From an uncultured Myxococcales bacterium (GTDB lineage: Bacteria; Myxococcota; UBA4151), in assembly GCA_964013405.1 (NCBI GenBank), contig CAXGWI010000005.1, positions 3,411 to 67,410 on the forward strand: 64,000 nucleotides of DNA, written 5' to 3'. Below, one piece after another: positions 2,152 through 64,000 of the stretch. The first letter of the stretch is position 1, and the number at the start of each line of letters is the position of its first letter. The notes under the pieces are model-generated. The model was not told where the DNA came from and made no database searches. It saw nothing but the letters and a program-made list of their open reading frames with translations. Made by a program: the position numbers and the translations under genes.

Positions 2152-2699
2152 GAAGTCTTTTGCTGTTGAGCAGCCTTTGTGTGGCCAGCGCCGCCCAAGC
2201 CACCGTCGTCCTGAAAATGGACCGGGCCGAGATGACCCAGATGAGCGATGACGTGCTGATGGTTCGAGTCGGTGCCCAGCGGGTGGTGGAAGAACAACCC
2301 GGCGCCCTGGTGACCCTGACCGATCTGGAAGTCCTCGAAAGCTTCAAAGGCAAGTACGAGGCCGGCGACACCGTGCTCTTGCAGCAAGCCGGCGGGGTGA
2401 AGGGTGACTGGGTGATGCACATCCCCGGCAAGAACACCTACCGTTTCGGTGAAACTTTGGTGCTCTTTTTAAATCGTCACCGAGACCGGGTGGTGCCCGT
2501 GGGCGTCGGCATCGGCCGCATGGTGGTCGAGGGGGAAGGCGACAGTGCCCTGTTGAAGGAAGAGTACGGTGATGTGGCCTTCGCTGAGCGTAACCCCAAA
2601 GGGAAAATGCGCTTCATGCACGGACCCCCGCCGAGCAAGCCCGTGAAACTCAGCGTCTTTCGCCGCTGGATCAGCAGTCTCTTGGAGGGCTCGCGCTGA
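2148..2699 (+). CDS. Small secreted hypothetical protein (183 aa) embedded between two metzincin genes
   Basis: Signal peptide MRSLLLLSSLCVASAAQA. A GAGAGGAG Shine-Dalgarno sits 9 nt upstream. The start overlaps the upstream stop as ATGA (2148-2151), and the stop overlaps the downstream start as TGATG (2697-2701). I recognise no known domain. Confidence 0.5.
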   Translation: MRSLLLLSSLCVASAAQATVVLKMDRAEMTQMSDDVLMVRVGAQRVVEEQPGALVTLTDLEVLESFKGKYEAGDTVLLQQAGGVKGDWVMHIPGKNTYRFGETLVLFLNRHRDRVVPVGVGIGRMVVEGEGDSALLKEEYGDVAFAERNPKGKMRFMHGPPPSKPVKLSVFRRWISSLLEGSR

Positions 2700-40160: not shown

Positions 40161-40397
40161 ATGGGTCTTGTCGGTATTCGTTTGGACGCCTTGAAAGCCC
40201 TGCTCGCTGCCGTTCACAATGAACAGTTGCCCTGCCCGCTCAGCCCCGATGCGCTTGCTTGTCAGGGCTTTCAGGACCTCAGCGAACAGATTCTTGCCAG
40301 TCTACGAGGCCTCGAAGAAGAGGCCGTTCGAGCGGTTCTTGTGGCGGTGATTGCCGAGCGTCTCTCCGTACTCGATCAGACCATCGGGTCCGCGTGA
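40161..40397 (+). CDS. Small hypothetical protein (79 aa) translationally coupled to the sirtuin gene
   Basis: GGAGTGAGGAAG Shine-Dalgarno 4-15 nt before ATG 40161. Predicted helical, with no signal peptide. The TGA stop (40395-40397) overlaps GTG 40394 of the Sir2 ORF. Confidence 0.4.
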   Translation: MGLVGIRLDALKALLAAVHNEQLPCPLSPDALACQGFQDLSEQILASLRGLEEEAVRAVLVAVIAERLSVLDQTIGSA

Positions 40398-41143
40398 GCC
40401 CAGCGGAGCACGTGGCTGCCTGGCTGCGTCAGGCGAATCGAGTTCTCTTCATCACCGGCGCAGGTTTGTCTGCCGAGAGTGGCTTGCCCACTTATCGGGG
40501 GGTGGGTGGTCTCTATGAGGACGCAGAGACCCCTGAGGGCCTGAGCATTGAGCAGGCGCTTTCTGGGGGCATGCTGCGCCGTGACCCGGCGCTGTGTTGG
40601 AAATACATCGCGCAGATCGAGAATGCCTGCCGTGGTGCGATGCCCAATCGGGCGCACGAGTTGATCGCCGCCTTTCAGGAACGGGTCGAGACCTGGGTCC
40701 TCACCCAGAATGTCGACGGGTTTCATGGTCAGGCTGGCAGCGATCACGTGATTCCCATTCATGGCGATATCCATGAACTCTACTGCCCATCATGTGGTTG
40801 GGAGGATTGGGTTCATGACTATGCAGAGCTCCCCATGCCGCCCCATTGCCCTCGCTGCCGAGCCATCATTCGGCCACGGGTGGTGCTTTTTGGGGAGATG
40901 CTGCCGCCGGCCGCCGTTGGATGCCTTAATCAGCAACTTCAACAGGGCTTTGATCTCGTCTTTAGCGTGGGCACGACCAGCGGCTTTTCTTATATCGCCC
41001 AGCCCGTGCTGATGGCCGCAGCACAGGGGGTGCCGACGGTGGAGATCAACCCAGGAGAGACGCCGGTGTCACCCCATGTCAGGCAGCGCTTTTCCTGCGG
41101 TGCTGTGGAGGCCTTGGAGGCGATTTGGGCGGCCTGGCGGTGA
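40394..41143 (+). CDS. cobB: NAD-dependent protein deacylase, Sir2 family (CobB-like sirtuin)
   Basis: GAGLSAESGLPTYRG. QNVDGFH. A Zn ribbon CPSCG...CPRC. VVLFGEMLP. VGTTSGFSYIAQP. The track ORF starts at 40259, but the N-terminal 45 aa are Arg/Ser-rich and overlap the small upstream ORF. A GTG at 40394 gives a canonical ~250-aa sirtuin. Confidence 0.8.
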   Translation: MSPAEHVAAWLRQANRVLFITGAGLSAESGLPTYRGVGGLYEDAETPEGLSIEQALSGGMLRRDPALCWKYIAQIENACRGAMPNRAHELIAAFQERVETWVLTQNVDGFHGQAGSDHVIPIHGDIHELYCPSCGWEDWVHDYAELPMPPHCPRCRAIIRPRVVLFGEMLPPAAVGCLNQQLQQGFDLVFSVGTTSGFSYIAQPVLMAAAQGVPTVEINPGETPVSPHVRQRFSCGAVEALEAIWAAWR

Positions 41144-51780: not shown

Positions 51781-54204
51781 TCATTCGCCATGGGCCGAAC
51801 GGGTCTCAGCGCTAATCGCATGATCCCAAAGAAGCACCGCGTCGAGATCGCCGGTAAAGGCTCGCTCTAAGCAGGCTTCATCGGCGCCACAGCCACCCAT
51901 GCGTAGAGGTGCTACATTGTTCCTGAGGGTGCCTGTTGCTGGGGCAAAGCCCGCATTCTGGCCCCGCACAAACAAGCTGAGACCCTGGCCGTCATAGACC
52001 GTGCAGAGTTGATTCCACTGGCCGAAGGAGACCGGCATGGTGCCATCGACACGGACCTGACCTTCAAGGGTGGCGATGCTCACCCAGGGGCGTTGATTAC
52101 TGGGTTCGATGGCCAGGCGATAGGAGCCCCCCTTCTCGACCACGATAAAGCGCTCTCGCTCCTGCTGGGCCAAGGGGCGCACCCAAGCGCAAAGGGAGAA
52201 GGTATCAAAGCCATCGAGTCGGTCATGATCGGCGATCTCCACATAAGCTCCATCTTGGAAAGCCAAGGCGCCGGCAGGCACTTGGCGCCGATCCGCCACC
52301 ATGGCCGCACCCTGGTTGATGCCGTGGTGCTCATTGCCAGAGGAATCGAGAATATCACCGTCCATGGGATAGCAGGCCATGCTGCCGAGACAGGCGGCCC
52401 CTGAACGGCAGGTGTTCGAACAAAAGTCATTGTCCTCGTCGTTACCATCATCGCAGTCCTCAACACCGAACCAGATGATCCCATCGCCACAGGTCGCCCT
52501 TAGACAAGCATCGGTGCAGGCGTCTTCGTCGCCGTCCTGGCCGTCATCACATTCCTCGCCGGCGAAATCATCGAGGATATTGTCGCCACAGACCGGCTCG
52601 CTGCAGTCTCGGCGGCAGGCATCTCGACCTTCTAGGTTGCCATCGTCGCAGGCTTCGTCGTGGTCGACGACGCCATCGCCACACGCCGGGCGTCGGCAAT
52701 CGGGACGACAGCCGTCTGTAGGATCTTCGTTACCATCATCGCATTCTTCATCGTGATCGACGCGACCGTTGCCACAGGCTGCTAACTGACAGGAGTTGCG
52801 ACAGCCATCGCTGTCCACGTCATTGCCATCGTCACAGCCCTCGTAGCCGAGTTCACCAGCGCCCCGATTGGTGCGAAGAATTCCATCGCCACACCGGGCC
52901 CGTCGACAGTCTCGGGTGCAGTCATCGCCATCTTCGTCATTGCCATCATCGCATTCTTCGATCCCGGCCCGCACGATGTTGTCGCCGCAGCGGGCGGCGA
53001 CGCAGTCAGTGGTGCAGCCATCGCCGTCGACGCCGTTGCCATCGTCGCATTCTTCGACGCCGGCCCGGACATGGCCGTCGCCGCAGCGGGGCAACTCGCA
53101 GCGAGGCGTACATTCATCGCCGCCTTCCCGGTTGCCGTCATCGCAGAACTCCCGGCCCGGGTGGAGAATTCCATCGCCACATTCGGCTTCTGCACACTGG
53201 TTGGTGCAGTCATCGGTGTTGACTCGATTGCCATCATCACAGGCTTCGTAGCCGATCTCGTTGTCGTTCAGGTCCTGCCGCACGAGCCCATCGCCACAGC
53301 GGGCAGAGATGCAGTTGTTGAGGCAGCCGTCGAAGGGGTCATCGTTGCCATCATCGCATTCTTCCCCTGGTCCTCGTAGACCGTCGCCACAGGCCTCGAG
53401 TCGGCAGGTGAATGAGCAGCCATCGCCGCTAAAGGTGTTGCCGTCGTCGCATTCCTCGAAGCCCCGTTCACCGGCCTCGATGTCCGTCCGTAGAAAGCCA
53501 TCGCCACATCGGGCCGGGCTGCAATCGTTCAAGCAGCCATCCACATTGGTTAAGTTGCCATCATCACAGCGTTCACCTTCGTCGATCACCCCGTCACCGC
53601 AGGGGGGCAATTGACAGGCCTCATTGCAGTCCTCGCCCCCGTCACATCCTTCACCGGGTTGCACCGTGCCATCGCCGCAGCGGGCCCGCTGGCACTGACC
53701 GTTGCAAAGGTCTTCCTCGATGAGATTTCCGTCATCGCATTGTTCGCTGCCCGGGCTGCCCTCGTCCAAATCCAGTCGCTGGATCCCGTCGCCGCAGCGG
53801 GCCACAAGGCATCGATGGGTGCAGGCGTCGTGGGCCTCCGCATTGCCATCGTCGCAGGCCTCGTAATCTGGCTCGCCTTCAACCCGGTCCAGCCGCAGGA
53901 CACCATCCCCGCAACGGGCGATGTGGCAACTGTTCAGGCAGTCGTCCGCGTCGTTGCTGTTGCCATCGTCGCAGGCTTCAAAGCCTTCATCGCCCTCGAG
54001 AAGGTCGCCTCGGCGAATCCCATCGCCACAGCGAGCCCGCTGGCACTGGTCCGTGCAAGCATCGTCGGCCACCGTGTTGTCGTCGTCACATTCTTCGCCG
54101 GAATCCAGCAGTCCATCACCACAGACGGGGTCGGGGTCGAGGACGGCGGGAGCCACCTCACAGCCCATGGCGATGAAACCCAAAATCAGAGAGATACGAG
54201 CCAT
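51781..54204 (-). CDS. Lipoprotein with about 14 Myxococcus-type cysteine-rich repeats (CGDG...EECDDGN...C, TIGR02232-like) and a C-terminal LamG/concanavalin-like domain
   Basis: GAGGAGG lies 8 nt before ATG 54204, inside the end of the upstream kinase gene. Repeats such as [39 protein letters not shown]. The C-terminal ~200 aa is LamG-like (FSLCAWVRP...GSYRLAIEP...). Confidence 0.7.
52407..54126. repeat. Degenerate ~105-bp coding repeat array (about 14 units) of the CGDG/ECDDGN cysteine-rich module
   Basis: Periodic tcgccgcagcgggc / gtcatcgcattcttc type segments on the plus strand correspond to the repeated protein modules. Confidence 0.55.
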
Positions 54205-54207
54205 CGA

Positions 54208-56829
54208 TTACACCTCCTCCGTTGCTGCGAGGAGCGATTCGATGGCGGCGCTGAGTTCTTCCGCCCGGTAGGGCTTTGAAATATAGCCATCCATGCCTGC
54301 ATTTAAGCAGGCTTCTCGGTCCTCCGCTTCTGTCCTTGCGGTGACGGCTAGAATCGGCAGGCGTCGTGTAGCGCCGGCCTCCGCTTCCCAGCGGCGGATG
54401 TCACGGCTGAGGTCCAGGCCGCTCTCACGGGCCAACATGACGTCCATAAGCACCAAGTTCACGTCGGTGCCCTCGCCCTTTTGCAGGGCCCCCAGACGGT
54501 CGTTAACCTCGGCACCGGTGGCGACCAACTCCACCGTGAGGCCAAGTTTTTCCAACATGGCTTGGGCGACCAGCTGATTCACAGGGTCGTCTTCAACCAC
54601 CAAGACGAGGGCCGAGAGTGCCGCTTGTGGGTCGGCCTCTTCGTCGCTGAGGACAGGCGGTGCTTCCGTTTCAATGCCGGCCTCGTCCACGACGACGGAG
54701 AAGCCAAAGCGAGTAATACCTGCACCTTGATCGGAGAAGAAAGCCTCTCCACCCATACGCTCCGCCAAGAGTTTGAGGGCCAACAGGTCAATGCCGCACC
54801 AGCGGGCAGCCCCGGGATCGGAACGAGACCCCAGCACACCAAAGACGTTCTCTTGTTGATCGGGGGGGATGGCTGGACCCGCGTCTGATACCTCGATCCG
54901 GACAGTCCACTGACCACCCGCCCTGTGGGCCTCTCCCCGGACCGCAATGGTCCCGGTCTCGGTGTAATGGAGACTGCGACGAAGGAGACAGTTGATCATC
55001 TGGCGCAGCCGCAGGTCGTCAACGATCCCCTGCAGTTCGTGTGGGATCATGAGATCGAGAGCGAGATCGAGCCCTTTGGTCTTGGCCTCGTTGTGATGGA
55101 GTTCGACCACCGCAGAAAGGAGTTCGGCAAGGCGCACCGTGCGCTGGTTAAACTCCAGTGCGTCCGCCTCTAGATGAACCAAGTCCTGAACATCGTAGAT
55201 GGTCTCCATGATGCGTTGGGCTTGGCTCTGCAACTGCTGGGCCGAGGCCCTCAATTGGATGGGCTGGCCTCCCTGGTCAGCCACCAATTGACTCAAGCCG
55301 ATCACCGAATGAAGAGGGCCTCGAACCTCTTGGTTAAGTCCGACCATGAGTTGGTTGCGGGCCTCGGCCTGCCGGCGCAGGTCATCATTTCGTGCCCGAG
55401 ATGCTGTCAGTTGAGCTTCGGTGGCTAACAACTGGTCTTCGATGGTCTTCAGTTCGCTGTTGAGGCTGTCTTTGGCCTGGACCGTCGACGTAACGTCATG
55501 GGCGATAAAGATGGCCCCCTGACCATCGCCGAGGGAGATGAGTGTCGCTTGCAGTGTCCGTTCGCCGTCGCAGTGGAGCAGTCCCGTCCAGTTGAGCGAC
55601 TTCCCCGCTGCCGACGGCCCTGGCAGTTCATGGTCTTTGGCCTCTACGACCTCGCTCAGGGGCACACCGACCAAGGCATCGGGCGACGCTCTACCTACGA
55701 GTTCGGCCAGTGGTGTGCCGGTGATGAGAATTTGAAGTTGGTCGTCGACAATGGCGGAAGGAAGGGCTCGAACGACCGCCTTCTGCCGCTCTTTCAGGGT
55801 GGTGAAACCGCTGGCATCAATGCAGTTGATCAGGCTGATCTCATCGTTGATGCTCTGCCGGCTGAGGATGAGATGGTGACCATCATGCTCCCACTGCAGA
55901 GGCTCGGCACCTTCGAGGAAGCCATCGACGACCTCGGCGCCAAGACCTCGCTGGTCTAAGACTTCGTGCAGGGATTGACCGCTCTCCATCGGGCCGAGCA
56001 ACCGTGTCGCCTCCGGATTGGTGGCGACGATGTAGTTGCGCTCAAGAAGGATGCAGCCTTCCCCCAGGCTCTCTAGAAGGCTTTGGACGATCGGGAGGCG
56101 GTGGGCGCCGCCGGCGAGGGTGCGGCTGGCCTGCTGGAGTGAATCCGTCGCTTCCGCGTCCTCACCAAGAAGGGTGGAAAGACCATCTGAAACCCAGAGC
56201 AGGCGTCCGCCTACCTTCCGTCCTGTCCGCCAGGCGATGAACAGGGTCAGCAGGACACAGATGCCCACAACCAGGGCGACTCGGTCCCGATACATTTCAA
56301 TTTGATCGGCGGTGAGTTGATGCCGCTTTTGCGTGTCACTACGGTAGCTTTGGATCAATCCGAGCAGATCTTGGTACAGCAAGATTTGGGTTGGCTCCCA
56401 GCGCTTCGTTAGGTCCGATCGAGCCCGGTCGAACTGCTGCTCTCTGGCCAGTTCCACGATGGCGTAGCTCGCCTTTTCAAGGGCGCCAAAATGGGTCTCT
56501 GCGGCTTGCAGATGGAGTTTGTGCGCTTCGGATTCCGCCAGGGTCTTTAGACATTCTAGCAAGCCAGTTCGTTGGCTTTGCATGCCTTCCAAGCGACTGG
56601 CGAACTGCTTGGGTTCCAGGGGGACGACCAGGCGCCGAAGGGAGTGGTCCCAATCCACAAGTCGGCGCTCACATTTAAGGATCTGCAGCGCTTGGTCCCA
56701 GTCTTCTGGCGCTTCGCCTTTGTGAATGTTTTGGGTCTTATGAAAGGCGTAGAGAGAGAAACCCCCGGCGGCGAGGACCAAGACCACGAGAAAGGTAAAG
56801 CCCAGTTGCAGGTGTGAACGCAGTTTCAT
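54208..56829 (-). CDS. Hybrid sensor histidine kinase (TM sensor, PAS, HisKA, HATPase, C-terminal REC)
   Basis: H-box NQEVRGPLHSVIGLSQLV. HATPase region. C-terminal REC LVLVVEDDPVNQLVAQAMLEKLG...LVLMDVMLARESGLD...DGYISKP. Confidence 0.85.
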   Translation of the reverse strand: MKLRSHLQLGFTFLVVLVLAAGGFSLYAFHKTQNIHKGEAPEDWDQALQILKCERRLVDWDHSLRRLVVPLEPKQFASRLEGMQSQRTGLLECLKTLAESEAHKLHLQAAETHFGALEKASYAIVELAREQQFDRARSDLTKRWEPTQILLYQDLLGLIQSYRSDTQKRHQLTADQIEMYRDRVALVVGICVLLTLFIAWRTGRKVGGRLLWVSDGLSTLLGEDAEATDSLQQASRTLAGGAHRLPIVQSLLESLGEGCILLERNYIVATNPEATRLLGPMESGQSLHEVLDQRGLGAEVVDGFLEGAEPLQWEHDGHHLILSRQSINDEISLINCIDASGFTTLKERQKAVVRALPSAIVDDQLQILITGTPLAELVGRASPDALVGVPLSEVVEAKDHELPGPSAAGKSLNWTGLLHCDGERTLQATLISLGDGQGAIFIAHDVTSTVQAKDSLNSELKTIEDQLLATEAQLTASRARNDDLRRQAEARNQLMVGLNQEVRGPLHSVIGLSQLVADQGGQPIQLRASAQQLQSQAQRIMETIYDVQDLVHLEADALEFNQRTVRLAELLSAVVELHHNEAKTKGLDLALDLMIPHELQGIVDDLRLRQMINCLLRRSLHYTETGTIAVRGEAHRAGGQWTVRIEVSDAGPAIPPDQQENVFGVLGSRSDPGAARWCGIDLLALKLLAERMGGEAFFSDQGAGITRFGFSVVVDEAGIETEAPPVLSDEEADPQAALSALVLVVEDDPVNQLVAQAMLEKLGLTVELVATGAEVNDRLGALQKGEGTDVNLVLMDVMLARESGLDLSRDIRRWEAEAGATRRLPILAVTARTEAEDREACLNAGMDGYISKPYRAEELSAAIESLLAATEEV

Positions 56830-56864
56830 GGCCAGCCCGCTTGATTCTGCCTCAGGTCGCCGCT

Positions 56865-59258
56865 CTAGACCAGATTCTGCGTTGTTTGGGTTAACACTTT
56901 GAGTTTCGGTTCCAGCTGGGCGTAGACTTGATGGATCTGGTGGATTTCCCCGTGCACATCGACTCGGCCCGCTCTCCCCGCTTGCTCAAGGAGTTTCGCA
57001 AGTTCCGAGAATCGAAGGGCGCCGACCTGGGCAGAAGAGCTCTTGAGGCGGTGGGCCAGGCCCCAGAGTTGCTCTGCGTCTTCTTCTGAAACCGCTTCGT
57101 CAAGTTCCGCAAGGAGACCTGGTGTTTGGGCCAGATAGGTTTCGATGAGGGTGGAGAAGACATGGCCTAGCGTGTCCCGTTGGTAAGCCAGTTGCTCCTC
57201 GTCGAGCTCACTTTCCAGCGCATTTGGAACGGCCGGTGAGCTGGGATCTCCAAGGGGCGCTTTGCCGGTGATCCCTTGGATGATTTGGTGCAGGTCAGCT
57301 TGTCTCACAGGCTTGGCGAGGTAGTCATCCATTCCGGCTGCGAGGCAGTCGGACTTTGTGCCGGGCATGACGTTGGCCGTCAGGGCAATGATTGGGCAGG
57401 CGCCCCGCCCGCTGTCCCGTTCCCATTGGCGAATCTCTTCGGTGGCGTGGAGGCCGTCCAAGATGGGCATATGGAGATCCATCAGGACGAGGTCGTAGGT
57501 TTCCGACTTCAGCGCGCGGACCGCTTGTTCCCCGTCGGAAAGAACGCTGCAACGCTCGCCAAGGTTCTCGATCATGGCTTGGACGACCACCTGATTGACC
57601 GGGTCGTCTTCGACCACAAGAACATGGATGCCCAACGGTGCAGAGTCAGCCTCGGGAGGGACCGTTTGCGACGTCGGTGGTGAGCTTTCGAGATCGCTGA
57701 CTTGAAAGGGAAGTTCGACCCAGAAGAGCGAGCCCCTCGTCTCTGGGCTGTCCAGGCCGATCGTACCGCCCATGAGTTCACAGATCTCCTTCGAGATCGC
57801 AAGGCCCAGCCCTGTGCCGCCGAAGGCTCGAGTGTTGGAGTCGTCGACCTGGGAAAATCGCTCGAAGAGATGATGAGCCCTTTCCGGCCCAATGCCGATG
57901 CCTGTGTCCTCCACTTCAAAGCGAATCGTCCGTGTGGCTCCGGAGCGTTCATGGGCTTGGCAGCGTAGGACGATTCGGCCCGCTTCCGTAAACTTGATGG
58001 CATTGCCCAGGAGATTGACGAGAATCTGACGAACCCGGTCGGCGTCGGCCCGTAGCCAGGTGGCCCCCCTGAGATTTGAGTCCAATGAGAACTCGAGCCC
58101 TTTGCTGCGGGCCGTATGTCCATAGAGGTCCATGAGATCGCTGAGGAGTTCGCTGAGATCGAAACGTTCTTGCCGCAGGCGAACCGCGCCCGCTTCCACC
58201 TGACTGATGTCGAGAACATCGTCCACCAGACGCAGGAGTCGCTCGCCAGAGCGGCTGAGGAGTTGAAGGTGCTCCATCTGGCTTGGCAACAGGTGATGAT
58301 TGCCGATCAACTCAGCGAGGCCAAGAATACCATTGAGAGGTGTCCTAAACTCATGGCTCATGTTGGCCAAGAATTGACTCTTGGCTCGATTCGCCGCCTG
58401 GGCCTCTGTCATCGACTTCGCCAGTTGTTGTTCGATGAGCTTTTGCTCGGTGACGTTGCTGATCACGATCAAGATTTTATCGTCGAAGGGGATGCCGTCC
58501 ACTTGGATGATCAACTTGAGGGAGCCCGAGCCAACCTGCTCCACCTCCAACTCGTGGCGAGAGAAGGCTTCACGCCGGCGGATCTTCTCCTGGAGGGTGG
58601 TCGGGAGGGAGAGGCGCTCAAGAATCTCACTCACCGGGCGCCCCCGCTCCGTCTCGAACAGCCCCTCGAACATGCGACGGAAGCCATCATTGACGAGGAC
58701 GATCCGATCCGCTTGGACCACGACGAGTCCTTGGGGAACCGCACTGAGGATGCGTTGGTTCAAAGCCTCCGAGTCGGCGAGCTCATCGGAGGTCGCAGAC
58801 AGGTTGGCTTCGAGGGCTCGTTGCTTTTGCCGCTCCTGGTCAATGGCCCGGAAGTAGCCTTTGAGTTTGTTGATGAGTTGGCGCTCGTCCACCGGCTTGA
58901 AGAGGTAATCGACCGCACCGAGACCGAAACCTTCCGCCACATCTTCTTCTCGCTTTGCTGCGGCGGTGAGAAAGATGATCGGTACATTGGCGTCTCGTTT
59001 GCGCTGTTTGATCATGTTGGCGGTTTCAAAGCCGTCTAGGCCCGGCATTTGAACATCGAGAATGATCACATCGACCGGCCGCTCGAGTAGGACAGCGAGG
59101 CCGGCCATGCCACTGGAGGCCTGAACGACTTCGACGCCGAGGTGCTCATCAAGCAAGGCTTCCAGGGTGAACAGGTTGTTCGGGTTATCGTCGACAATCA
59201 ATACCGAGAATTGGGTCATATCGAGTTCGGTCAACGGGATCTCCTCTGTACAAACCAA
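56865..59258 (-). CDS. Hybrid histidine kinase with phosphorelay architecture (REC-PAS-HisKA-HATPase-REC-HPt)
   Basis: N-terminal REC VLIVDDNPNN...IILDVQMPGLDGFE. H-box LANMSHEFRTPLNGILG. Second REC HVLVVEDDPVNQVV...LVLMDLHMPILDG. The C-terminal HPt-like segment LWGLAHRLKSSSAQVGA carries the conserved His. Confidence 0.85.
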   Translation of the reverse strand: MVCTEEIPLTELDMTQFSVLIVDDNPNNLFTLEALLDEHLGVEVVQASSGMAGLAVLLERPVDVIILDVQMPGLDGFETANMIKQRKRDANVPIIFLTAAAKREEDVAEGFGLGAVDYLFKPVDERQLINKLKGYFRAIDQERQKQRALEANLSATSDELADSEALNQRILSAVPQGLVVVQADRIVLVNDGFRRMFEGLFETERGRPVSEILERLSLPTTLQEKIRRREAFSRHELEVEQVGSGSLKLIIQVDGIPFDDKILIVISNVTEQKLIEQQLAKSMTEAQAANRAKSQFLANMSHEFRTPLNGILGLAELIGNHHLLPSQMEHLQLLSRSGERLLRLVDDVLDISQVEAGAVRLRQERFDLSELLSDLMDLYGHTARSKGLEFSLDSNLRGATWLRADADRVRQILVNLLGNAIKFTEAGRIVLRCQAHERSGATRTIRFEVEDTGIGIGPERAHHLFERFSQVDDSNTRAFGGTGLGLAISKEICELMGGTIGLDSPETRGSLFWVELPFQVSDLESSPPTSQTVPPEADSAPLGIHVLVVEDDPVNQVVVQAMIENLGERCSVLSDGEQAVRALKSETYDLVLMDLHMPILDGLHATEEIRQWERDSGRGACPIIALTANVMPGTKSDCLAAGMDDYLAKPVRQADLHQIIQGITGKAPLGDPSSPAVPNALESELDEEQLAYQRDTLGHVFSTLIETYLAQTPGLLAELDEAVSEEDAEQLWGLAHRLKSSSAQVGALRFSELAKLLEQAGRAGRVDVHGEIHQIHQVYAQLEPKLKVLTQTTQNLV

Positions 59259-59292
59259 CGGTCTAGAGCGGGGCCCTTCACCGGCATCGAGA

Positions 59293-60609
59293 TCATTTCA
59301 GCCACCAACCCAGTGTGACAAGGCCCGCAAGCCCGAGAAGGCCGATGAGACTCCGCAGCGTCGCCGTCTGCCGCTGCGCTCGGTCCACGGCCTGTTGATA
59401 GGGGATATTGGAGAAGCTCACCATGCCATAGAGGGGGTGAAAGCCTGGCAGGATACGTTCCAGGGCCTGCTCGATCTTCTTTTGCATCAGGAACAGGGGC
59501 GAGGCCACTGCCGCCCGCATTTCGTGGTAGTGGTCGAGGGCGAGCTGCCGGATGGCAAAGCCATGGGGACAGCGCTCGGCACTGAAACGACTCAAGGCCT
59601 CAGCTTGGGGATGTTGGGTCAACAAATCGTCCAGGAGGTTGGCGCTCTCAAAGGCTGCGTTCATGCCTTGGCCATAAAAAGGCACCACTGCGTGGGCCGC
59701 ATCGCCGATGAGAACCACCCGTTCACCATAGTGGTAAGGGCTGCATTTGATCGTGGCGAGACCGCTATGGGGGTTGCTGAAAAAGTCGTCGATCAGCGTT
59801 GGCATGAGGGGGACGGCATCGGCGAACTGCTCATCGAAAAATCGCTGCACATCAGCGGGCTCTTTGAGCCGCTCGAAACACCAGTCGGTCTCGGACTTGA
59901 ACGGTAAAAACAGGGTCACAGTGAAGCTCTTGTCCAGATTGGGCAGGGCGATGAGCATGTAGTCTTGGCGGGGCCAGATGTGGAGCCCTTTGGGGTCGAT
60001 GGCGAAGTTGCCATCCGCGGCCGGCGGGATGGACAGTTCCACGTAACCTGAGTCGATCCACGTTTGGTCGTAGTTCAATTGACTCTGTTTCATCACCTGG
60101 TCGCGAACCGCAGAAAAGGCGCCATCGGCGCCAATCACCAAACTGGAATCATGGCTCTTCCGGTCACCAGAAGGGTCTTGAAAGGTCACCCTTCCCGTCT
60201 CTGCTTCGAGGGCAACGCAGGCTTGATCGAAGTGAAATGGAACGCCCGCAGCCTCCGCTTCGTTCATGAGGAGTGCGTTGAGATCTCGACGGCTAACGCT
60301 GCGTATCGCTTGGTGCGCTTGACCGTAGGCTTGGAAGTTGAGCGCGCCCCCACGGTCATGGAGAATTCGGCCGGGCATCGGCAGGCTTTGCTCCAAGACG
60401 GTCTCTTGCAGACCCACTTTCTCAAGAGCCGTCAGCCCGCGGGTTGAAATAGCCAGATTGATGGATCGTCCGGCTGGAATATCCACTCGCCGTAGATCCG
60501 GGCGCCGCTCCCAAACCTCGACCCGCTGGCCTCGACGGGCCAAGTAGAGGGCCATTAATGATCCGGCCAGGCCGGCACCGACGATGTGAACGGGCGGCGA
60601 GGGGGTCAC
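59293..60609 (-). CDS. kmo: Kynurenine 3-monooxygenase (FAD-dependent, C-terminal membrane helix)
   Basis: IVGAGLAGSLMALYLARRG. GADGAFSAVR. HIWPRQDYMLIALPNLDKSFTVTLFLPF is nearly identical to eukaryotic KMO. The GTG start 60609 overlaps the kynU stop (GTGA). The track ORF begins 12 codons earlier. Confidence 0.88.
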   Translation of the reverse strand: MTPSPPVHIVGAGLAGSLMALYLARRGQRVEVWERRPDLRRVDIPAGRSINLAISTRGLTALEKVGLQETVLEQSLPMPGRILHDRGGALNFQAYGQAHQAIRSVSRRDLNALLMNEAEAAGVPFHFDQACVALEAETGRVTFQDPSGDRKSHDSSLVIGADGAFSAVRDQVMKQSQLNYDQTWIDSGYVELSIPPAADGNFAIDPKGLHIWPRQDYMLIALPNLDKSFTVTLFLPFKSETDWCFERLKEPADVQRFFDEQFADAVPLMPTLIDDFFSNPHSGLATIKCSPYHYGERVVLIGDAAHAVVPFYGQGMNAAFESANLLDDLLTQHPQAEALSRFSAERCPHGFAIRQLALDHYHEMRAAVASPLFLMQKKIEQALERILPGFHPLYGMVSFSNIPYQQAVDRAQRQTATLRSLIGLLGLAGLVTLGWWLK

Positions 60610-61847
60610 GAGAGCCGTTCCCGGAGAATCTCGGCCACTCGCCACAACTCATGATAGCGGTTGTAGAGGGGAGCAGGAGCCATTCGGATCACGTCGGGAT
60701 GGCGGAAATCACAGTAGACGCCAGCCCCTGCGAGGGCCTGATGGAGGCCTGGTCCGTCGCCGTGGATGCGTAGGCTGATCTGCGATCCTCGCCGATGGGC
60801 TTCTGTTGGGCTGATGATCTCCACTCGGCCGGTTGGTAATCGGTCCAGTTGGGAAAGAAAGAAGTCGGTCAGCGAGAGGCTCTTTTGTCGTAGCGCATCC
60901 ATCCCCGCTTCGTCGTGGATGGCCAAGGCTGCTCGGTGGCAGGCCATGCTCATGACGGGGGCGTTTGAAAGCTGCCATGCGCCGGCACCGGCCTGGGCCT
61001 CGAAGGCGCCCATTTTAAAGCGCGTCTCCGGATGGGTGCCCCACCAACCGTGAAAGCGGGGAAGGTCGGCATTTTTGTGGCGGTCGTGGACGAAAAGACC
61101 GGCCACACCGCCCGGACCCGAGTTGAGGTATTTGTAGGAGCACCAGGCGGCGAAATCCACGCCCCAGTCGTGGAGTTGCAAGGGCACGTTGCCGGCCGCA
61201 TGGGCGAGGTCAAAGCCAACCATTGCGCCGGCTTTGTGGGCTGCTTTCGCAATCCGGGCCATGTCGAAGAGTTGGCCGGTGTAATAATGGACGCCACCGA
61301 TCATGACCAAGGCCACCCGGTGGCCATTGGTTTCTAGGTAGGCTTCGATCTCCGCCTCATCGACGAGGTCGCTCTCACCGCCCAAGCTAACGATGGCGTC
61401 GTCGGGGCCAAAGCCATGGAAGCGGGCCTGGCTATCGACAGCGTAGCGATCGGAAGGAAAGGCGCCAGCTTCGGTGAGAATCTGGAACCGTTCGGCCGTC
61501 GGGCGGTAAAACGAGACCATGGCCAAATGCAGGTTATTGGTCAGCGAGCCCATCGAGACCACTTCGTGGGGCTTGGCGCCAACGAGTCGCCCAAGGGGCT
61601 CGCAGAGATCTTCGTGATAACTGTACCAGGGGTACTTGGCCTCAAAGTGCCCCTCCACCGCGAGGCGGGCCCAATCGTCGAGCTCCTGTTCGAGGGCAGC
61701 TCGGGTGGTTCGGGGCTGAAGACCCAAGGAGTTACCGCAGAGGTAAATGGCTTCCTCGCCGGTTTTGGTCCGGGGCAAAAGGAAGCGACTCCGGAAAGAG
61801 GCGAGGGGGTCGAGACGGTCTAAGTCCAGCGCTTGAGATTCGCTCAT
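60606..61847 (-). CDS. kynU: Kynureninase (PLP-dependent)
   Basis: YLCGNSLGLQP. FAAWCSYKYLNSGPGGVAGLFVH carries the Lys-PLP site. 413 aa. Confidence 0.88.
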   Translation of the reverse strand: MSESQALDLDRLDPLASFRSRFLLPRTKTGEEAIYLCGNSLGLQPRTTRAALEQELDDWARLAVEGHFEAKYPWYSYHEDLCEPLGRLVGAKPHEVVSMGSLTNNLHLAMVSFYRPTAERFQILTEAGAFPSDRYAVDSQARFHGFGPDDAIVSLGGESDLVDEAEIEAYLETNGHRVALVMIGGVHYYTGQLFDMARIAKAAHKAGAMVGFDLAHAAGNVPLQLHDWGVDFAAWCSYKYLNSGPGGVAGLFVHDRHKNADLPRFHGWWGTHPETRFKMGAFEAQAGAGAWQLSNAPVMSMACHRAALAIHDEAGMDALRQKSLSLTDFFLSQLDRLPTGRVEIISPTEAHRRGSQISLRIHGDGPGLHQALAGAGVYCDFRHPDVIRMAPAPLYNRYHELWRVAEILRERLS

Positions 61848-62656
61848 CGCTCAAGCTCCAAAGAAAAGAGAAGGGGCCTGGAAGGGGCGGCGTCACAAAG
61901 CATTCGAGGCACCTGAAGGTCCAGCAGATAAAGCCCATCGGGAATCCCCTGAGGAACGAGGGCTAATTCGGTGAGCGTGCGTTGATGGGCTGCCGCTCGC
62001 CCCCCCTTGGGAAGTTGCCAGAAAATACGGTGGTTCGGCAGGGTGCCACCATCCTCATGGCGATCGAGGCTGGGCAGATCGAGCACCAAGTGATCGACGC
62101 CCCGGGCAACGATCAATTCAATGGCCTCGTGGCTCAGGTAGGGGGCCGGTTGTTGGCCATAGTCTCGGCGGGCTTTACCCTTGTCGGGCAGTGTCCGTAT
62201 CACCAGGCTTTGTACCCCTGGGAGCGTGGGCCAGTTGGCCTGGAGCGCCGCTGCGCTGACGATCCAGTCCTCGGCGGCTTCAAAACCGTTGTATGACTCG
62301 TTCCCATCGCTAAACAATTCGGTCTGCACTGACACCAATTGGCAAACGAGCAGTTGGTTCGGCGCTGCTTCGGCAATCGTCGCCTCGTTGCGGTCGAGAT
62401 GGGCGGCGCTCTCGGTGTGGGTCATCGATCCGTGGGGGGTGAGTTCCAGGGTGCTGCAGTTGCAACTCCCTCCCCGGGCCGTATCACCGACGAAGCCGCC
62501 GCCCTCCACGGCTGTGAGACGGGGTTGGGGGAGGTCGTAGAAGCTGGGGTTGCGCCCGTTGAAGTCCACGGGCAGCGCCAGATCGATACCGGCCGCCAAG
62601 TCGGCTCGATAGGTCGAGCCCTCCAGTGTGACTCGAGCTTCGATCAACTGCGGCAC
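61844..62656 (-). CDS. kynB: Cyclase-family protein, putative kynurenine formamidase (arylformamidase)
   Basis: TPHGSMTHTESAAHLD resembles the HxGTHxDxPxH cyclase/KynB motif. The operon context supports the call. Confidence 0.6.
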   Translation of the reverse strand: MPQLIEARVTLEGSTYRADLAAGIDLALPVDFNGRNPSFYDLPQPRLTAVEGGGFVGDTARGGSCNCSTLELTPHGSMTHTESAAHLDRNEATIAEAAPNQLLVCQLVSVQTELFSDGNESYNGFEAAEDWIVSAAALQANWPTLPGVQSLVIRTLPDKGKARRDYGQQPAPYLSHEAIELIVARGVDHLVLDLPSLDRHEDGGTLPNHRIFWQLPKGGRAAAHQRTLTELALVPQGIPDGLYLLDLQVPRMLCDAAPSRPLLFSLELER

Positions 62657-63702
62657 GACTCCTTGAGCCAGGCGCTATGGGCCCGACTTGCGTCCGTTTC
62701 GAAGGCTTCTCGTGCCAAGCCGAGAAACTCCAGTGCGGTCCCTGAGAGGAGGCGTTCTGCGGTATCGTAGTCTTTGATTGTGGTTTCGATGAGTTGTCCG
62801 GGGCTCAACTCCCCCAGTGGAAAGGGGTAATCCGTACCAAGGCCGATGCGCTGGGCACCAAAGGTGCTGAGCAGAAATTCGAGGGCCTTCGGGTGATGGA
62901 CCAGACTATCCAGATAGACTTTGTCCAGATAGGTGCTGGGTTTGTTTTGCGTTTGGGTTTGACACAGATCAGGCCGGACTTCGAAGCCATGGTCGATGCG
63001 CCCGATCGTCACGGGAAAGCTGCCACCGCCATGGGCGAAGCAAACCTTCAACTTGGGGTAGCGGTCGTAGACGCCGCCCATGATCATGGAGCACATTGCG
63101 AGGCTGGTCTCGGCGGGCATGCTCACCAGCCAGGGCAGCCAGTGGCGGGGCATTCGGTCTTTGCCCATCATGTCCCAGGGGTGCACGAAGACGCTGGCAT
63201 TCAGCGCTTCAGCGGCCGCCCAGAACTCGTCCAGCTCCGGCTCGTCCAGATTCCATTGATTGATATGGGTGCCGATCTCAACGCCCGCGAGCCCCAGATC
63301 CTTCATGCACCGTTCCAACTCCTTGATGGCCAGGTCTGGGGCCTGCATCGGCAGTGTGCCCAGGCCAACGAAGCGCTTGGGATGGTCCCGACAGATCCCG
63401 GCCAGGTGATCATTCAGGATCTGACTTAGATCATGGGTGTCCTCCGGTTCTGCCCAGTAGGAAAACATGACTGGGACTGTGGAGAGGACTTGAACATCCA
63501 CCCGATAATCATCGCATTCTTCCATGCGACGGCCAGGACTCCAGCAGTTGTGATCGATCTCGCGAAAGAATTGGTCGCCCATCATCATTCGAGCGCAGCA
63601 GGGCTTATGGTGATCCAAGCGAATGAAGCCAGCGTAGCCGTAGCGATCTTCAAGGTCAGGCCAGCGCTCGGGGAGAATGTGGGTATGGAGGTCGATCTTC
63701 AT
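62644..63702 (-). CDS. 2-amino-3-carboxymuconate-6-semialdehyde decarboxylase (ACMSD, amidohydrolase-2 family)
   Basis: From ATG 63702: MKIDLHTHILPERWPDLEDRYGYAGFIRLDHH...STVPVMFSYWAEPED...FVGLGTLPMQAP...LPWLVSMPAETSLAMCSMIMGGV...KVCFAHGGGSFP...LGTDYPFPLGE. This is near-collinear with human ACMSD. The track ORF carries a 91-codon N-terminal extension that is probably not translated. Confidence 0.9.
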   Translation of the reverse strand: MKIDLHTHILPERWPDLEDRYGYAGFIRLDHHKPCCARMMMGDQFFREIDHNCWSPGRRMEECDDYRVDVQVLSTVPVMFSYWAEPEDTHDLSQILNDHLAGICRDHPKRFVGLGTLPMQAPDLAIKELERCMKDLGLAGVEIGTHINQWNLDEPELDEFWAAAEALNASVFVHPWDMMGKDRMPRHWLPWLVSMPAETSLAMCSMIMGGVYDRYPKLKVCFAHGGGSFPVTIGRIDHGFEVRPDLCQTQTQNKPSTYLDKVYLDSLVHHPKALEFLLSTFGAQRIGLGTDYPFPLGELSPGQLIETTIKDYDTAERLLSGTALEFLGLAREAFETDASRAHSAWLKESCRS

Positions 63703-63706
63703 GGGC

Positions 63707-64000
63707 TCATCCGGGAACCTGAGCGACCGTCCCGCATTGGGAGCAGCGATGCTTTTCCGTGCTGGCGTAATAGTTTTGGATGGCAGGAAGGAGATCCGCT
63801 GCGATGTCTTGGAGGTGAAAGGCTTCGCGGTGGAGCTTCGTATTGCAGGCTTCGCAAAACCAGAGCAGTTGATCGATCTCGTTGTCCCGGCGCTGACGTT
63901 CAACCACCAAGCCAACGGTGTTGGCGGGCCGGCGAGGGCTGTGGGGGACTCCGGCTGGAAGGAGAAGGATTTCACCCTCTCGGATCGAGATGTCCCGGAA
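63707..64000 (-). CDS. 3-hydroxyanthranilate 3,4-dioxygenase (C-terminal part; the gene runs off the right edge)
   Basis: Translation of the minus strand from the window edge reads ...REGEILLLPAGVPHSPRRPANTVGLVVERQRRDNEIDQLLWFCEACNTKLHR...YYASTEKHRCSQCGT. The VPHSP(Q/R)R cupin motif and the C-terminal CxxC...CxxC rubredoxin-like site are typical of bacterial NbaC/HAAO. Confidence 0.85.
   Translation of the reverse strand, partial: FRDISIREGEILLLPAGVPHSPRRPANTVGLVVERQRRDNEIDQLLWFCEACNTKLHREAFHLQDIAADLLPAIQNYYASTEKHRCSQCGTVAQVPG

What the first reader, a model, noticed from the sequence alone, without database searches (positions are those of the whole stretch)
59293..64000. Eukaryote-like kynurenine pathway operon (HAAO-ACMSD-KynB-KynU-KMO) carrying the ACMSD branch and lacking TDO in the window
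ACMSD here is almost collinear with the human enzyme. KMO shares long identical stretches with eukaryotic KMO (HIWPR...IALPN..KSFT.TLF.PF) and has the C-terminal membrane helix. Starts and stops overlap (GTGA, 4-nt and 13-nt overlaps), so the genes are tightly coupled. Having both HAAO and ACMSD implies control of the quinolinate versus 2-aminomuconate branch point. That control is rare in bacteria. The tryptophan 2,3-dioxygenase gene is not within the window and may lie upstream beyond position 64000.
Basis: partly seen in the sequence, partly recalled or inferred. Interest (0 to 1): 0.6.

Follow-up and report, generated by a model that had tools for sequence, protein, structure and literature searches.

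The report
Bacterial tryptophan-degradation operon, distal half
The last 4.7 kb of the window holds the final five genes of a longer operon that lets a marine myxobacterium break down tryptophan through kynurenine; the genes are real and two of them look strikingly human-like, but the pathway is known, widespread in bacteria and partly already annotated.

Summary
Observation confirmed. On the minus strand lie the 3' end of HAAO (63707-64000), ACMSD (62644-63702), a KynB-like formamidase (61844-62656), kynureninase (60606-61847) and KMO (59293-60609). The junctions are a 4-nt gap and 13-, 4- and 4-nt overlaps, as reported.

A 99.99%-identical Tara Oceans contig (L006) continues past position 64000. 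There the same operon carries TDO, 2-aminomuconate-semialdehyde dehydrogenase, 2-aminomuconate deaminase and a DmpH-like decarboxylase. This is therefore a tryptophan catabolic operon, from kynurenine to 2-aminomuconate to 4-oxalocrotonate, of the kind already described in Burkholderia. No nadC lies nearby.

"Eukaryote-like" holds for ACMSD (58% identical and collinear with human, 38% to Pseudomonas NbaD) and for kynureninase, which has the human-type specificity residues. It does not hold for KMO, HAAO or the formamidase.

This ACMSD type occurs in at least 595 bacterial species genomes across many phyla. The window's copy groups with other Myxococcota. Transfer from eukaryotes is therefore not supported, and "rare" is overstated. 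GenBank already names this protein ACMSD.

The one modestly new point is the formamidase. It is a divergent KynB-fold protein with an Asp-to-Glu metal ligand and about 60 extra residues, and GenBank lists it as hypothetical.

The parts
63707..64000 (-). 3' part of the 3-hydroxyanthranilate 3,4-dioxygenase gene (HAAO/NbaC type): last 97 codons plus stop. The gene runs off the window end. The full 170-aa gene is L006 8438-8950.
   Evidence: NCBIfam NF009763 E 2e-35 and TIGR03037 E 1e-33 on the fragment. The fragment holds the PAGVPHSP iron-ligand region and the CEAC...CSQC rubredoxin-like site. The full-length ortholog in L001 scores 234.5 bits against a cutoff of 220.
62644..63702 (-). ACMSD, 2-amino-3-carboxymuconate-6-semialdehyde decarboxylase, 352 aa. 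It is the animal-like type and is identical to GenBank MBM65626.1.
   Evidence: Pfam PF04909 E 4e-43. Human ACMSD 461 bits against P. fluorescens 239 bits. H6, H8, R47, H174, W188, H224, R235 and D291 are invariant in the 20-sequence alignment A1. Exact match to a GenBank protein already named ACMSD.
61844..62656 (-). Divergent KynB-fold (cyclase family) protein, 270 aa. Predicted kynurenine formamidase. Its 90%-identity cluster includes GenBank MBM65625.1 (275 aa), annotated as 'hypothetical protein'.
   Evidence: Pfam Cyclase 38 bits. No NCBIfam hit and no single-sequence PDB hit. AlphaFold2 model pLDDT 93.1. Top Foldseek hits are the three KynB crystal structures, E 4e-14 to 3e-12. A profile of the clade finds B. 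anthracis KynB at E 4e-6, with the metal-ligand histidines aligned. In other genomes the gene always sits between ACMSD and KynU.
60606..61847 (-). Kynureninase, 413 aa, of the 3-hydroxykynurenine (human-like) type.
   Evidence: TIGR01814 419 bits against a cutoff of 246. Human KYNU 346-352 bits against P. fluorescens 183 bits. His, Ser-Asn and the SYKYLN lysine align with human His102, Ser332-Asn333 and the PLP lysine.
59293..60609 (-). Kynurenine 3-monooxygenase, 438 aa counted from the GTG that overlaps the kynU stop. It has a C-terminal hydrophobic tail.
   Evidence: PDB KMO: P. fluorescens 331, rat 330, human 302, yeast 227 bits. Pfam FAD_binding_3 E 5e-28. C-terminal tail hydrophobicity 1.61.
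56865..59258 (-). Hybrid histidine kinase (REC-HisKA-HATPase-REC-Hpt) 34 nt downstream of KMO on the same strand. It may be co-transcribed. Whether it belongs to the unit is unproven.
   Evidence: Pfam domains. No terminator-like site between it and KMO, and site counts are at the chance level. The same arrangement is found in the 73%-identical relative L001.

Best explanation
Window 59293-64000 is the promoter-distal end of a chromosomal operon of about 13 genes in a marine Myxococcales MAG. The operon degrades L-tryptophan by the kynurenine/3-hydroxyanthranilate/2-aminomuconate route.

Inferred order of reactions:
1. TDO (beyond the window) opens the indole ring.
2. The KynB-like metallo-formamidase removes formate.
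3. KMO hydroxylates kynurenine.
4. The human-type kynureninase cleaves 3-hydroxykynurenine to 3-hydroxyanthranilate and alanine.
5. HAAO opens the ring to give ACMS.
6. ACMSD decarboxylates ACMS before it can cyclise to quinolinate.
7. AMSDH, 2-aminomuconate deaminase and a DmpH-like decarboxylase (all beyond the window) carry the carbon on to 2-oxopent-4-enoate and central metabolism.

Translational coupling (4- to 13-nt overlaps) would keep the enzymes that handle unstable intermediates in balanced amounts.

Shown here: gene identities, catalytic residues, gene order, operon continuation and taxonomic spread. Inferred: substrates, flux direction and co-transcription.
For: - Gene identities.
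- Operon continuation in the same population genome: L006 is 99.987% identical over 7842 nt and carries TDO, Aldedh, RidA-like and FAA_hydrolase genes upstream of HAAO. All junctions are overlaps or gaps of 55 nt or less.
- The Aldedh scores 660 bits to P. fluorescens AMSDH against 413 for the next family.
- The RidA-like protein scores 132 bits to the 2-aminomuconate deaminase structure 6izh against 74 for the next hit.
- The FAA_hydrolase is best matched by DmpH, 2-oxo-3-hexenedioate decarboxylase.
- The same gene order is kept in a relative at 73% nucleotide identity.
- The core AMSDH-deaminase-HAAO-ACMSD-KynB-like-KynU-KMO order recurs in Kangiella, Colwellia, Rhodothermales and Steroidobacteraceae genomes.
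- KynU carries the residues that in the human enzyme select 3-hydroxykynurenine (their role is from my knowledge of the human KYNU mutagenesis literature). This fits a route in which KMO acts before kynureninase.
- No nadC homologue lies in the window, in L001-L007 or within 10 kb of ACMSD in any of 80 genomes.
- A Burkholderia cenocepacia kynurenine-pathway cluster with a dedicated 2-aminomuconate deaminase is on record (bioRxiv 10.64898/2026.06.05.730449).
Against: - No 2-oxopent-4-enoate hydratase, 4-hydroxy-2-oxovalerate aldolase or acetaldehyde dehydrogenase was found in the 72.6 kb examined. The end of the route is therefore not accounted for locally.
- The DmpH-like protein is below the NCBIfam cutoff (226 against 350 bits).
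- Three membrane proteins (189 aa, GIDE/LemA, 177 aa) and a fused hydantoinase/oxoprolinase-like gene in the same string have no assigned role.
- The formamidase assignment rests on fold, ligands and position only.
- No expression or enzymology data exist. The organism is an uncultured MAG.
Confidence: 0.85

Rival explanations
1. The cluster mainly makes quinolinate for de novo NAD synthesis, as in the bacterial five-enzyme tryptophan-to-quinolinate pathway. ACMSD would only tune the ACMS branch point.
For: TDO, formamidase, KMO, kynureninase and HAAO are together exactly the five enzymes needed to reach ACMS and quinolinate. Bacterial genomes with 4-5 kynurenine-pathway enzymes, including Deltaproteobacteria and Bacteroidetes, are documented (PMC4217691). 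ACMS cyclises to quinolinate spontaneously (established biochemistry). Some NAD supply as a side product is therefore not excluded.
Against: ACMSD, AMSDH, 2-aminomuconate deaminase and a decarboxylase are in the same tightly coupled string. That drains ACMS away from quinolinate. No nadC lies in the window, in L001-L007 or near ACMSD in 80 genomes.
Confidence: 0.1
2. The genes were recently acquired from a eukaryote by horizontal transfer, which would explain the human-like ACMSD and kynureninase.
For: ACMSD is 57.7% identical to human against 38.2% to Pseudomonas NbaD. KynU scores 352 bits to human against 183 to Pseudomonas. The representative of the 50%-identity cluster that best matches the query is an amoebozoan transcript. 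KMO has a C-terminal tail anchor like eukaryotic KMO.
Against: - The nearest relatives are bacterial: 65-90% identity in thousands of proteins and at least 595 species genomes across many phyla.
- The window sequence groups with Myxococcales and Bradymonadales at 87-91% bootstrap and is not nested among eukaryotes.
- GC is 0.58-0.61, like the neighbouring DNA.
- The genes sit in a bacterial operon with overlapping start and stop codons and no introns.
- The formamidase has the bacterial fold.
- Published trees do not support eukaryote-to-bacteria transfer of this pathway (PMC4217691).
Confidence: 0.03
3. The cluster is an nba/amn-type pathway for nitrobenzoate or aminophenol xenobiotics, or a supplier of 3-hydroxyanthranilate or kynurenine for a secondary metabolite, and does not serve tryptophan catabolism.
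For: HAAO, ACMSD, AMSDH, deaminase and 4-OD are also the core of the Pseudomonas nba 2-nitrobenzoate pathway (PDB names; pathway from my knowledge).
Against: TDO, formamidase, KMO and kynureninase in the same string make tryptophan the entry substrate. No nitroreductase, mutase, NRPS or PKS genes are nearby. ACMSD is of the animal-like type, not the nbaD type.
Confidence: 0.02

Closest known systems
Bacterial tryptophan catabolic pathway via ACMS and 2-aminomuconate (Burkholderia cenocepacia / Cupriavidus kynurenine-pathway cluster; Colabroy and Begley 2005, cited from my knowledge and through bioRxiv 10.64898/2026.06.05.730449)
   Same: The same enzyme set: TDO, KynB-fold formamidase, KMO, kynureninase, HAAO, ACMSD, AMSDH, RidA-family 2-aminomuconate deaminase and a 4-oxalocrotonate-decarboxylase-like enzyme.
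   Different: ACMSD and kynureninase belong to the animal-like sequence clade rather than the Pseudomonas type. The formamidase is a divergent KynB subfamily. No hydratase, aldolase or acetaldehyde dehydrogenase genes are in the cluster. Membrane proteins and a hydantoinase-like gene are inserted.
Mammalian kynurenine pathway (TDO2, AFMID, KMO, KYNU, HAAO, ACMSD, ALDH8A1)
   Same: ACMSD is collinear with and 58% identical to the human enzyme, with the same numbering of metal and substrate residues. KynU has the His102/Ser332/Asn333 equivalents. KMO has a C-terminal hydrophobic tail.
   Different: The formamidase has a KynB binuclear-metal fold, not the AFMID serine hydrolase fold (PMC4243253). 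HAAO is the 170-aa single-domain form with a Cys4 site, not the 286-aa animal form. After 2-aminomuconate the operon uses a deaminase, as in bacteria and fungi, not the metazoan ASPDH reductase (bioRxiv 10.64898/2026.06.05.730449). The genes form an operon.
Pseudomonas fluorescens KU-7 nba 2-nitrobenzoate pathway (NbaC/NbaD/NbaE/NbaF)
   Same: The lower-pathway chemistry from 3-hydroxyanthranilate onward is shared. AMSDH scores 660 bits to the P. fluorescens enzyme.
   Different: ACMSD is only 38% identical to NbaD. The upstream half here starts from tryptophan, not from nitrobenzoate.
Canonical bacterial KynB (B. anthracis, P. aeruginosa and B. cenocepacia structures 4co9, 4cob, 4cog)
   Same: Same fold (Foldseek probability 1.0, TM-score on the target 0.76-0.84). 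His50, His54, His60 and His161 equivalents are conserved as H75, H80, H86 and H209.
   Different: Only 18-20% identity. About 60 residues longer. One extra residue lies between the first two histidines. The strictly conserved Asp56 is replaced by an invariant Glu (E82). The NCBIfam library (which I expect includes a KynB model) and single-sequence phmmer do not detect it (ligand conservation from PMC4243253).

Membership tests
ACMSD (EC 4.1.1.45, amidohydrolase_2 decarboxylases) | Amidohydro_2 domain, with the best matches being characterised ACMSDs over the full length | tested here: met
   PF04909 148.8 bits. Human ACMSD 461 bits over residues 1-335; P. fluorescens ACMSD 239 bits.
ACMSD (EC 4.1.1.45, amidohydrolase_2 decarboxylases) | Zn ligands His6/His8/His174/Asp291, catalytic His224, substrate Arg47/Arg235 (human numbering; residue roles from my knowledge of the ACMSD structure papers) | tested here: met
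   The gap-free alignment to human up to residue 309 keeps the numbering. All seven residues are invariant in alignment A1.
ACMSD (EC 4.1.1.45, amidohydrolase_2 decarboxylases) | Decarboxylation of ACMS in vitro | not testable with these tools
   Needs an enzyme assay.
Kynureninase (TIGR01814) | Score above the curated equivalog cutoff, and a PLP lysine | tested here: met
   419 bits against 246.4. The SYKYLN lysine aligns with the human SYKYLN.
Kynureninase, 3-hydroxykynurenine-preferring subtype | His and Ser-Asn at human positions 102 and 332-333, in place of Trp and Gly-Thr in the Pseudomonas enzyme | tested here: met
   The alignment shows GH......SN as in human; P. fluorescens has SW and GT at these positions. 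The role of these residues is from my knowledge.
Kynurenine 3-monooxygenase | Class A flavoprotein monooxygenase whose best full-length matches are KMOs, with GxGxxG, DG and GDAAH motifs | tested here: met
   KMO structures score 227-331 bits; the next family (Tet(X)-like) scores 61 bits. GAGLAG, IGADGAFSAVR and GDAAHAVVPFYGQGMN are present.
Kynurenine 3-monooxygenase | Eukaryote-specific affinity, meaning closer to eukaryotic than to bacterial KMO | tested here: not met
   P. fluorescens 331 bits, rat 330, human 302, yeast 227.
KynB kynurenine formamidase (cyclase family, PF04199) | Cyclase/KynB fold | tested here: met
   Pfam 38 bits against 23.1. Model pLDDT 93. The three KynB structures are the top Foldseek hits, E 4e-14 to 3e-12.
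KynB kynurenine formamidase (cyclase family, PF04199) | Binuclear-zinc ligands His50, His54, Asp56, His60, His161, Glu173 (BaKynB; PMC4243253) | tested here: inconclusive
   H75, H80, H86 and H209 align and are invariant. Asp56 is replaced by an invariant Glu82. Glu173 may be E230, but this was not aligned.
KynB kynurenine formamidase (cyclase family, PF04199) | Recognition by a curated equivalog model | tested here: not met
   No NCBIfam family at E <= 1e-3. GenBank calls a member of its 90%-identity cluster hypothetical. JGI calls homologues arylformamidase or kynurenine formamidase.
3-hydroxyanthranilate 3,4-dioxygenase | Score above the curated cutoff, and a cupin iron site | tested here: met
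   The window fragment scores 122 bits, which is partial. The full-length ortholog in L001 scores 234.5 against 220. The His in PAGVPHSP is present.
Bacterial tryptophan-to-2-aminomuconate catabolic cluster | Co-located TDO, formamidase, KMO, kynureninase, HAAO, ACMSD, AMSDH and 2-aminomuconate deaminase | tested here: met
   All eight lie in one same-strand string in L006, which is 99.987% identical to the window.
Bacterial tryptophan-to-2-aminomuconate catabolic cluster | A complete lower meta-cleavage set (4-OD, hydratase, aldolase, acetaldehyde dehydrogenase) | tested here: not met
   Only one DmpH/DmpE-family protein was found, and it is below the cutoff. None of the others is in the window or in L006.
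De novo NAD pathway from tryptophan (five enzymes plus NadC) | nadC linked to the cluster, or nadA/nadB absent from the genome | tested here: inconclusive
   No nadC lies within the 72.6 kb examined or near ACMSD in 80 genomes. The whole genome was not available.

The most novel reading that the evidence does not exclude
Two readings remain open.

1. The KynB-like protein may represent an unrecognised formamidase subfamily: Glu in place of the strictly conserved Asp ligand, about 60 extra residues, and listed as hypothetical in GenBank. It would travel specifically with the animal-like ACMSD/KYNU module.
2. That bacterial module (Myxococcota, Gammaproteobacteria, Rhodothermales, Bacteroidota and others) may be the sister or source lineage of the opisthokont and amoebozoan ACMSD and kynureninase. 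The unresolved tree does not exclude this.

The lineage-specific insertions (LemA/GIDE, two glycine-rich membrane proteins, and a fused hydantoinase/oxoprolinase-like enzyme overlapping TDO) could also mark an undescribed extension of the pathway.
Probability: 0.15. Interest if true: 0.45.

Novelty: new member of a known kind. Interest (0 to 1): 0.22.

Why it matters
It adds little that is new. It is a sound annotation of a complete tryptophan-degradation operon in an uncultured marine myxobacterium.

It does show that the "animal-type" ACMSD and 3-hydroxykynureninase are common bacterial enzymes, found across many phyla. That is useful background for anyone arguing about the origin of the eukaryotic kynurenine pathway. 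Cultured carriers such as Kangiella, Marinicella, Pontibacter and Hymenobacter could serve as tractable models of the human-type enzymes, which are drug targets.

The divergent KynB-like formamidase is a concrete annotation gap that one enzyme assay could close.

Tried and rejected
- **Exact look-up of the window's KynU** found nothing. The exact cyclase-like protein P0121 did lead to the overlapping contig.
- **Single-sequence PDB search with the KynB-like protein** gave only noise: putidaredoxin at E about 0.3. Structure prediction and a profile search were needed.
- **Promoter and terminator scans** gave counts at the chance level. They neither join nor separate the operon and the downstream kinases.
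- **The genome-contig scan** did not return the source species itself (best hit 69%). The whole genome could therefore not be checked for nadA, nadB, nadC or the lower meta-cleavage genes.
- **Contig walking beyond L006** is not possible, because only window proteins and returned homologues can be looked up.
- **The neighbour-joining tree** has only three eukaryotic sequences and cannot resolve the eukaryote/bacteria branching order. Bacterial monophyly has 24% support. No maximum-likelihood program was available.
- **Pfam scans of 34 other window ORFs** found no NAD-synthesis or meta-cleavage genes.
- **Rejected readings:** an nba-type xenobiotic pathway; precursor supply for a secondary metabolite; recent transfer from eukaryotes.

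Full report
**1. What is in the window**

All genes are on the minus strand between 59293 and 64000.

- **HAAO.** The last 97 codons of a 3-hydroxyanthranilate 3,4-dioxygenase gene (63707-64000) run off the window end. NCBIfam NF009763 gives E 2e-35.
- **ACMSD (62644-63702).** Four bases after the HAAO stop comes the ATG of ACMSD. The mechanical ORF list extends it to a GTG at 63975. The homology begins at MKIDLHTH, and gene callers on related contigs use that start.
- **Cyclase-family gene (61844-62656).** It starts at a GTG 13 nt before the ACMSD stop.
- **Kynureninase (60606-61847).** It starts in an ATGA overlap.
- **KMO (59293-60609).** It starts at the GTG of a GTGA overlap. That start keeps the N-terminal VHIVGAGLAGS Rossmann motif. 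The 420-aa start called on L006 would remove it.

**2. Identities and likely function**

- **ACMSD.** It matches human ACMSD over 1-335 against 1-336 with one single-residue gap, at 461 bits. The P. fluorescens enzyme scores 239 bits. The residues known from the human and Pseudomonas structures as metal ligands, catalytic His and substrate arginines (H6, H8, H174, D291, H224, R47, R235) are invariant in a 20-sequence alignment. Their roles are from my knowledge of those papers.
- **Kynureninase.** It exceeds the TIGR01814 cutoff (419 against 246 bits). It is much closer to human (346-352 bits) than to P. fluorescens kynureninase (183 bits). It has His and Ser-Asn where human KYNU has His102 and Ser332-Asn333; Pseudomonas has Trp and Gly-Thr. 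In the human enzyme these positions determine preference for 3-hydroxykynurenine (my knowledge). That fits an operon that also encodes KMO.
- **KMO.** It scores the same against P. fluorescens (331 bits) and rat (330 bits) KMO. The C-terminal hydrophobic tail is real. It also occurs in 6 of 37 bacterial KMOs next to this ACMSD type (Verrucomicrobiota, Planctomycetota, Burkholderiales).
- **HAAO.** It is the short single-domain form with the CxxC...CxxC site, and is equally similar to the bovine and Cupriavidus enzymes.

**3. The formamidase is the weakest call and was tested separately**

- Pfam gives only a 38-bit Cyclase match.
- NCBIfam gives nothing.
- A single-sequence PDB search gives noise.
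- The window protein is identical to P0121, whose 90%-identity cluster includes GenBank MBM65625.1 (275 aa), annotated as hypothetical.
- A 36-sequence alignment of its clade gave an AlphaFold2 model with mean pLDDT 93.1.
- The best Foldseek matches in the PDB are the three crystal structures of bacterial kynurenine formamidase KynB: E 4e-14 to 3e-12, probability 1.0, 18-20% identity.
- A profile of the clade finds B. anthracis KynB at E 4e-6. It aligns PHxxxTHTExxxH with H-TGTHIDAPFH, and LxxHR with LAAHH.
- Read against the published ligand list (His50, His54, Asp56, His60, His161, Glu173; PMC4243253), H75, H80, H86 and H209 are conserved. The Asp reported as strictly conserved in canonical KynB is an invariant Glu (E82) here, and the protein is about 60 residues longer.
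- In other genomes its homologue is found only directly between ACMSD and kynureninase (15 of 80 loci).

I conclude that it is a divergent KynB-fold formamidase. Membership in KynB proper is only partly met.

**4. The operon continues beyond the window**

- The exact KynB-like protein is on a Tara Oceans contig (L006) that is 99.987% identical to window 56159-64000. Window position 64000 corresponds to L006 8657.
- Upstream of HAAO, on the same strand, every junction is an overlap or a gap of at most 55 nt. The genes, from nearest to farthest, are:
  - a DmpH/DmpE-family FAA hydrolase;
  - a RidA-family protein;
  - a 177-aa glycine-rich protein;
  - a GIDE/LemA membrane protein;
  - a 189-aa glycine-rich protein;
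  - an aldehyde dehydrogenase;
  - TDO;
  - a fused hydantoinase/oxoprolinase-like gene that overlaps TDO by 26 nt.
- The dehydrogenase scores 660 bits to P. fluorescens 2-aminomuconate-6-semialdehyde dehydrogenase, against 413 for the next family.
- The RidA-like protein scores 132 bits to the 2-aminomuconate deaminase structure 6izh, against 74 for generic RidA.
- A relative at 73% nucleotide identity keeps the same order.

The whole unit is a degradative pathway of the type described for Burkholderia (cited in bioRxiv 10.64898/2026.06.05.730449), not just a quinolinate branch-point module. No nadC homologue is in the window, in L001-L007 or within 10 kb of ACMSD in 80 genomes.

**5. How "eukaryote-like", and how rare**

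- The window's ACMSD has thousands of bacterial relatives at 65-90% identity.
They include Bacteroidota, Myxococcota, Bradymonadales, Planctomycetota, Verrucomicrobiota, several Gammaproteobacteria, Gemmatimonadota, Ignavibacteria, Rhodothermales and others.
- HAAO is adjacent in 66 of 80 loci. Kynureninase is nearby in 41 and KMO in 37. The same HAAO-ACMSD-KynB-like-KynU-KMO order occurs in 9 loci, and two further short contigs are truncated within it.
- In a neighbour-joining tree the window sequence groups with Myxococcales and Bradymonadales (87-91% bootstrap).
- Human, an amoebozoan and a diplonemid sequence fall at the base of or among the bacterial clade without resolution. Bacterial monophyly has 24% support.
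- GC content is the same as in the flanking DNA.
- Published analyses likewise found no support for eukaryote-to-bacteria transfer of this pathway (PMC4217691).

So the similarity to human enzymes is real for two of the five proteins. It reflects an old, shared, widely distributed clade rather than a recent transfer. The combination is uncommon but not rare.

**6. Source and prior annotation**

Exact-sequence look-ups place the window in a marine Myxococcales MAG (GenBank MBM65xxx, locus tags CMH55_05xxx). Its ACMSD is already named as such. The rest of the window is ordinary chromosome: isoleucyl-tRNA synthetase, a DNA polymerase A fragment, a Clp-like ATPase, FabH, glycosyltransferases, and a DUF4215 cysteine-rich repeat protein typical of myxobacteria.

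**7. Verdict**

- **Observation:** confirmed.
- **Interpretation:** partly supported. The gene calls and the TDO prediction are right. "Eukaryote-like operon", "rare" and "possible transfer from eukaryotes" are overstated or not supported.
- **Mechanism:** a tryptophan catabolic operon running through kynurenine, 3-hydroxyanthranilate, ACMS and 2-aminomuconate (confidence 0.85).
- **Open points:**
  - the fate of 2-oxopent-4-enoate;
  - the role of the inserted membrane proteins and the hydantoinase-like gene;
  - whether the two downstream hybrid histidine kinases are co-transcribed, since no terminator was found and the counts are at chance;
  - whether any quinolinate is drawn off for NAD.
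- **Novelty:** a new member of a known kind.
- **Interest:** low (0.22). The divergent KynB subfamily is the only modestly new element.

Noticed in passing
L006 4785-7161 (beyond the window end; same operon): Three predicted membrane proteins sit between the AMSDH and 2-aminomuconate deaminase genes. They are a 189-aa and a 177-aa glycine-rich protein with no Pfam match, and a 425-aa GIDE + LemA protein. In other taxa the AMSDH and deaminase genes are adjacent, so this is a lineage-specific insertion of unknown role.
   Followed up: partly
L006 1-2451 (beyond the window end): A fused hydantoinase/oxoprolinase-like gene (HyuA+HyuB, 1167 aa) overlaps the TDO start by 26 nt. The same holds in the 73%-identical relative. 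It has no homologue near ACMSD in 80 other genomes. Its best NCBIfam matches are caprolactamase subunits, far below the cutoff.
   Followed up: partly
window 54208-59258 (-): Two hybrid histidine kinases (REC-HisKA-HATPase-REC-Hpt, and HisKA-HATPase-REC) follow KMO on the same strand, with gaps of 34 and 35 nt and no terminator-like site. The arrangement is conserved in the relative L001. They may be co-transcribed with the catabolic operon.
   Followed up: partly
window 59293-59360 (-) and loci L049, L053, L056, L066, L071, L078: The C-terminal hydrophobic tail on KMO, a feature known from eukaryotic outer-mitochondrial-membrane KMO, is shared by a minority (6 of 37) of bacterial KMOs in Verrucomicrobiota, Planctomycetota and Burkholiales-type MAGs (Burkholderiales). 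This suggests membrane-anchored KMO in some bacteria.
   Followed up: partly
window 51781-54204 (-): An 807-aa protein with many DUF4215 cysteine-rich repeats (238 bits) and a C-terminal LamG-like domain. This is typical of Myxococcota and agrees with the taxonomic assignment.
   Followed up: no
window 730-4687 (+): Two adjacent genes encode proteins with matrixin-type (M10) metalloprotease domains, 473 and 662 aa.
   Followed up: no
window 40259-41143 (+): A Sir2-family NAD-dependent deacylase gene. It is an NAD consumer and is not linked to the operon.
   Followed up: no
window 32055-33425 (+): A 456-aa protein with cytochrome c554 / MtrC-like multihaem domains.
   Followed up: no
L005 9468-11482: In an unrelated 820-kb metagenomic scaffold the ACMSD homologue is 493 aa, about 140 residues longer than usual. 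It lies next to HAAO and a divergently oriented aldehyde dehydrogenase, with 2-oxoglutarate-dehydrogenase-like E1 and E2 genes 3 kb downstream.
   Followed up: no
P0266 / P0394 (representatives search): One cluster of 623-aa proteins appears to be an ACMSD fused to a tryptophan 2,3-dioxygenase. The full-length members match ACMSD over residues 4-334, and short fragments in the same 90% cluster are named TDO by JGI.
   Followed up: no
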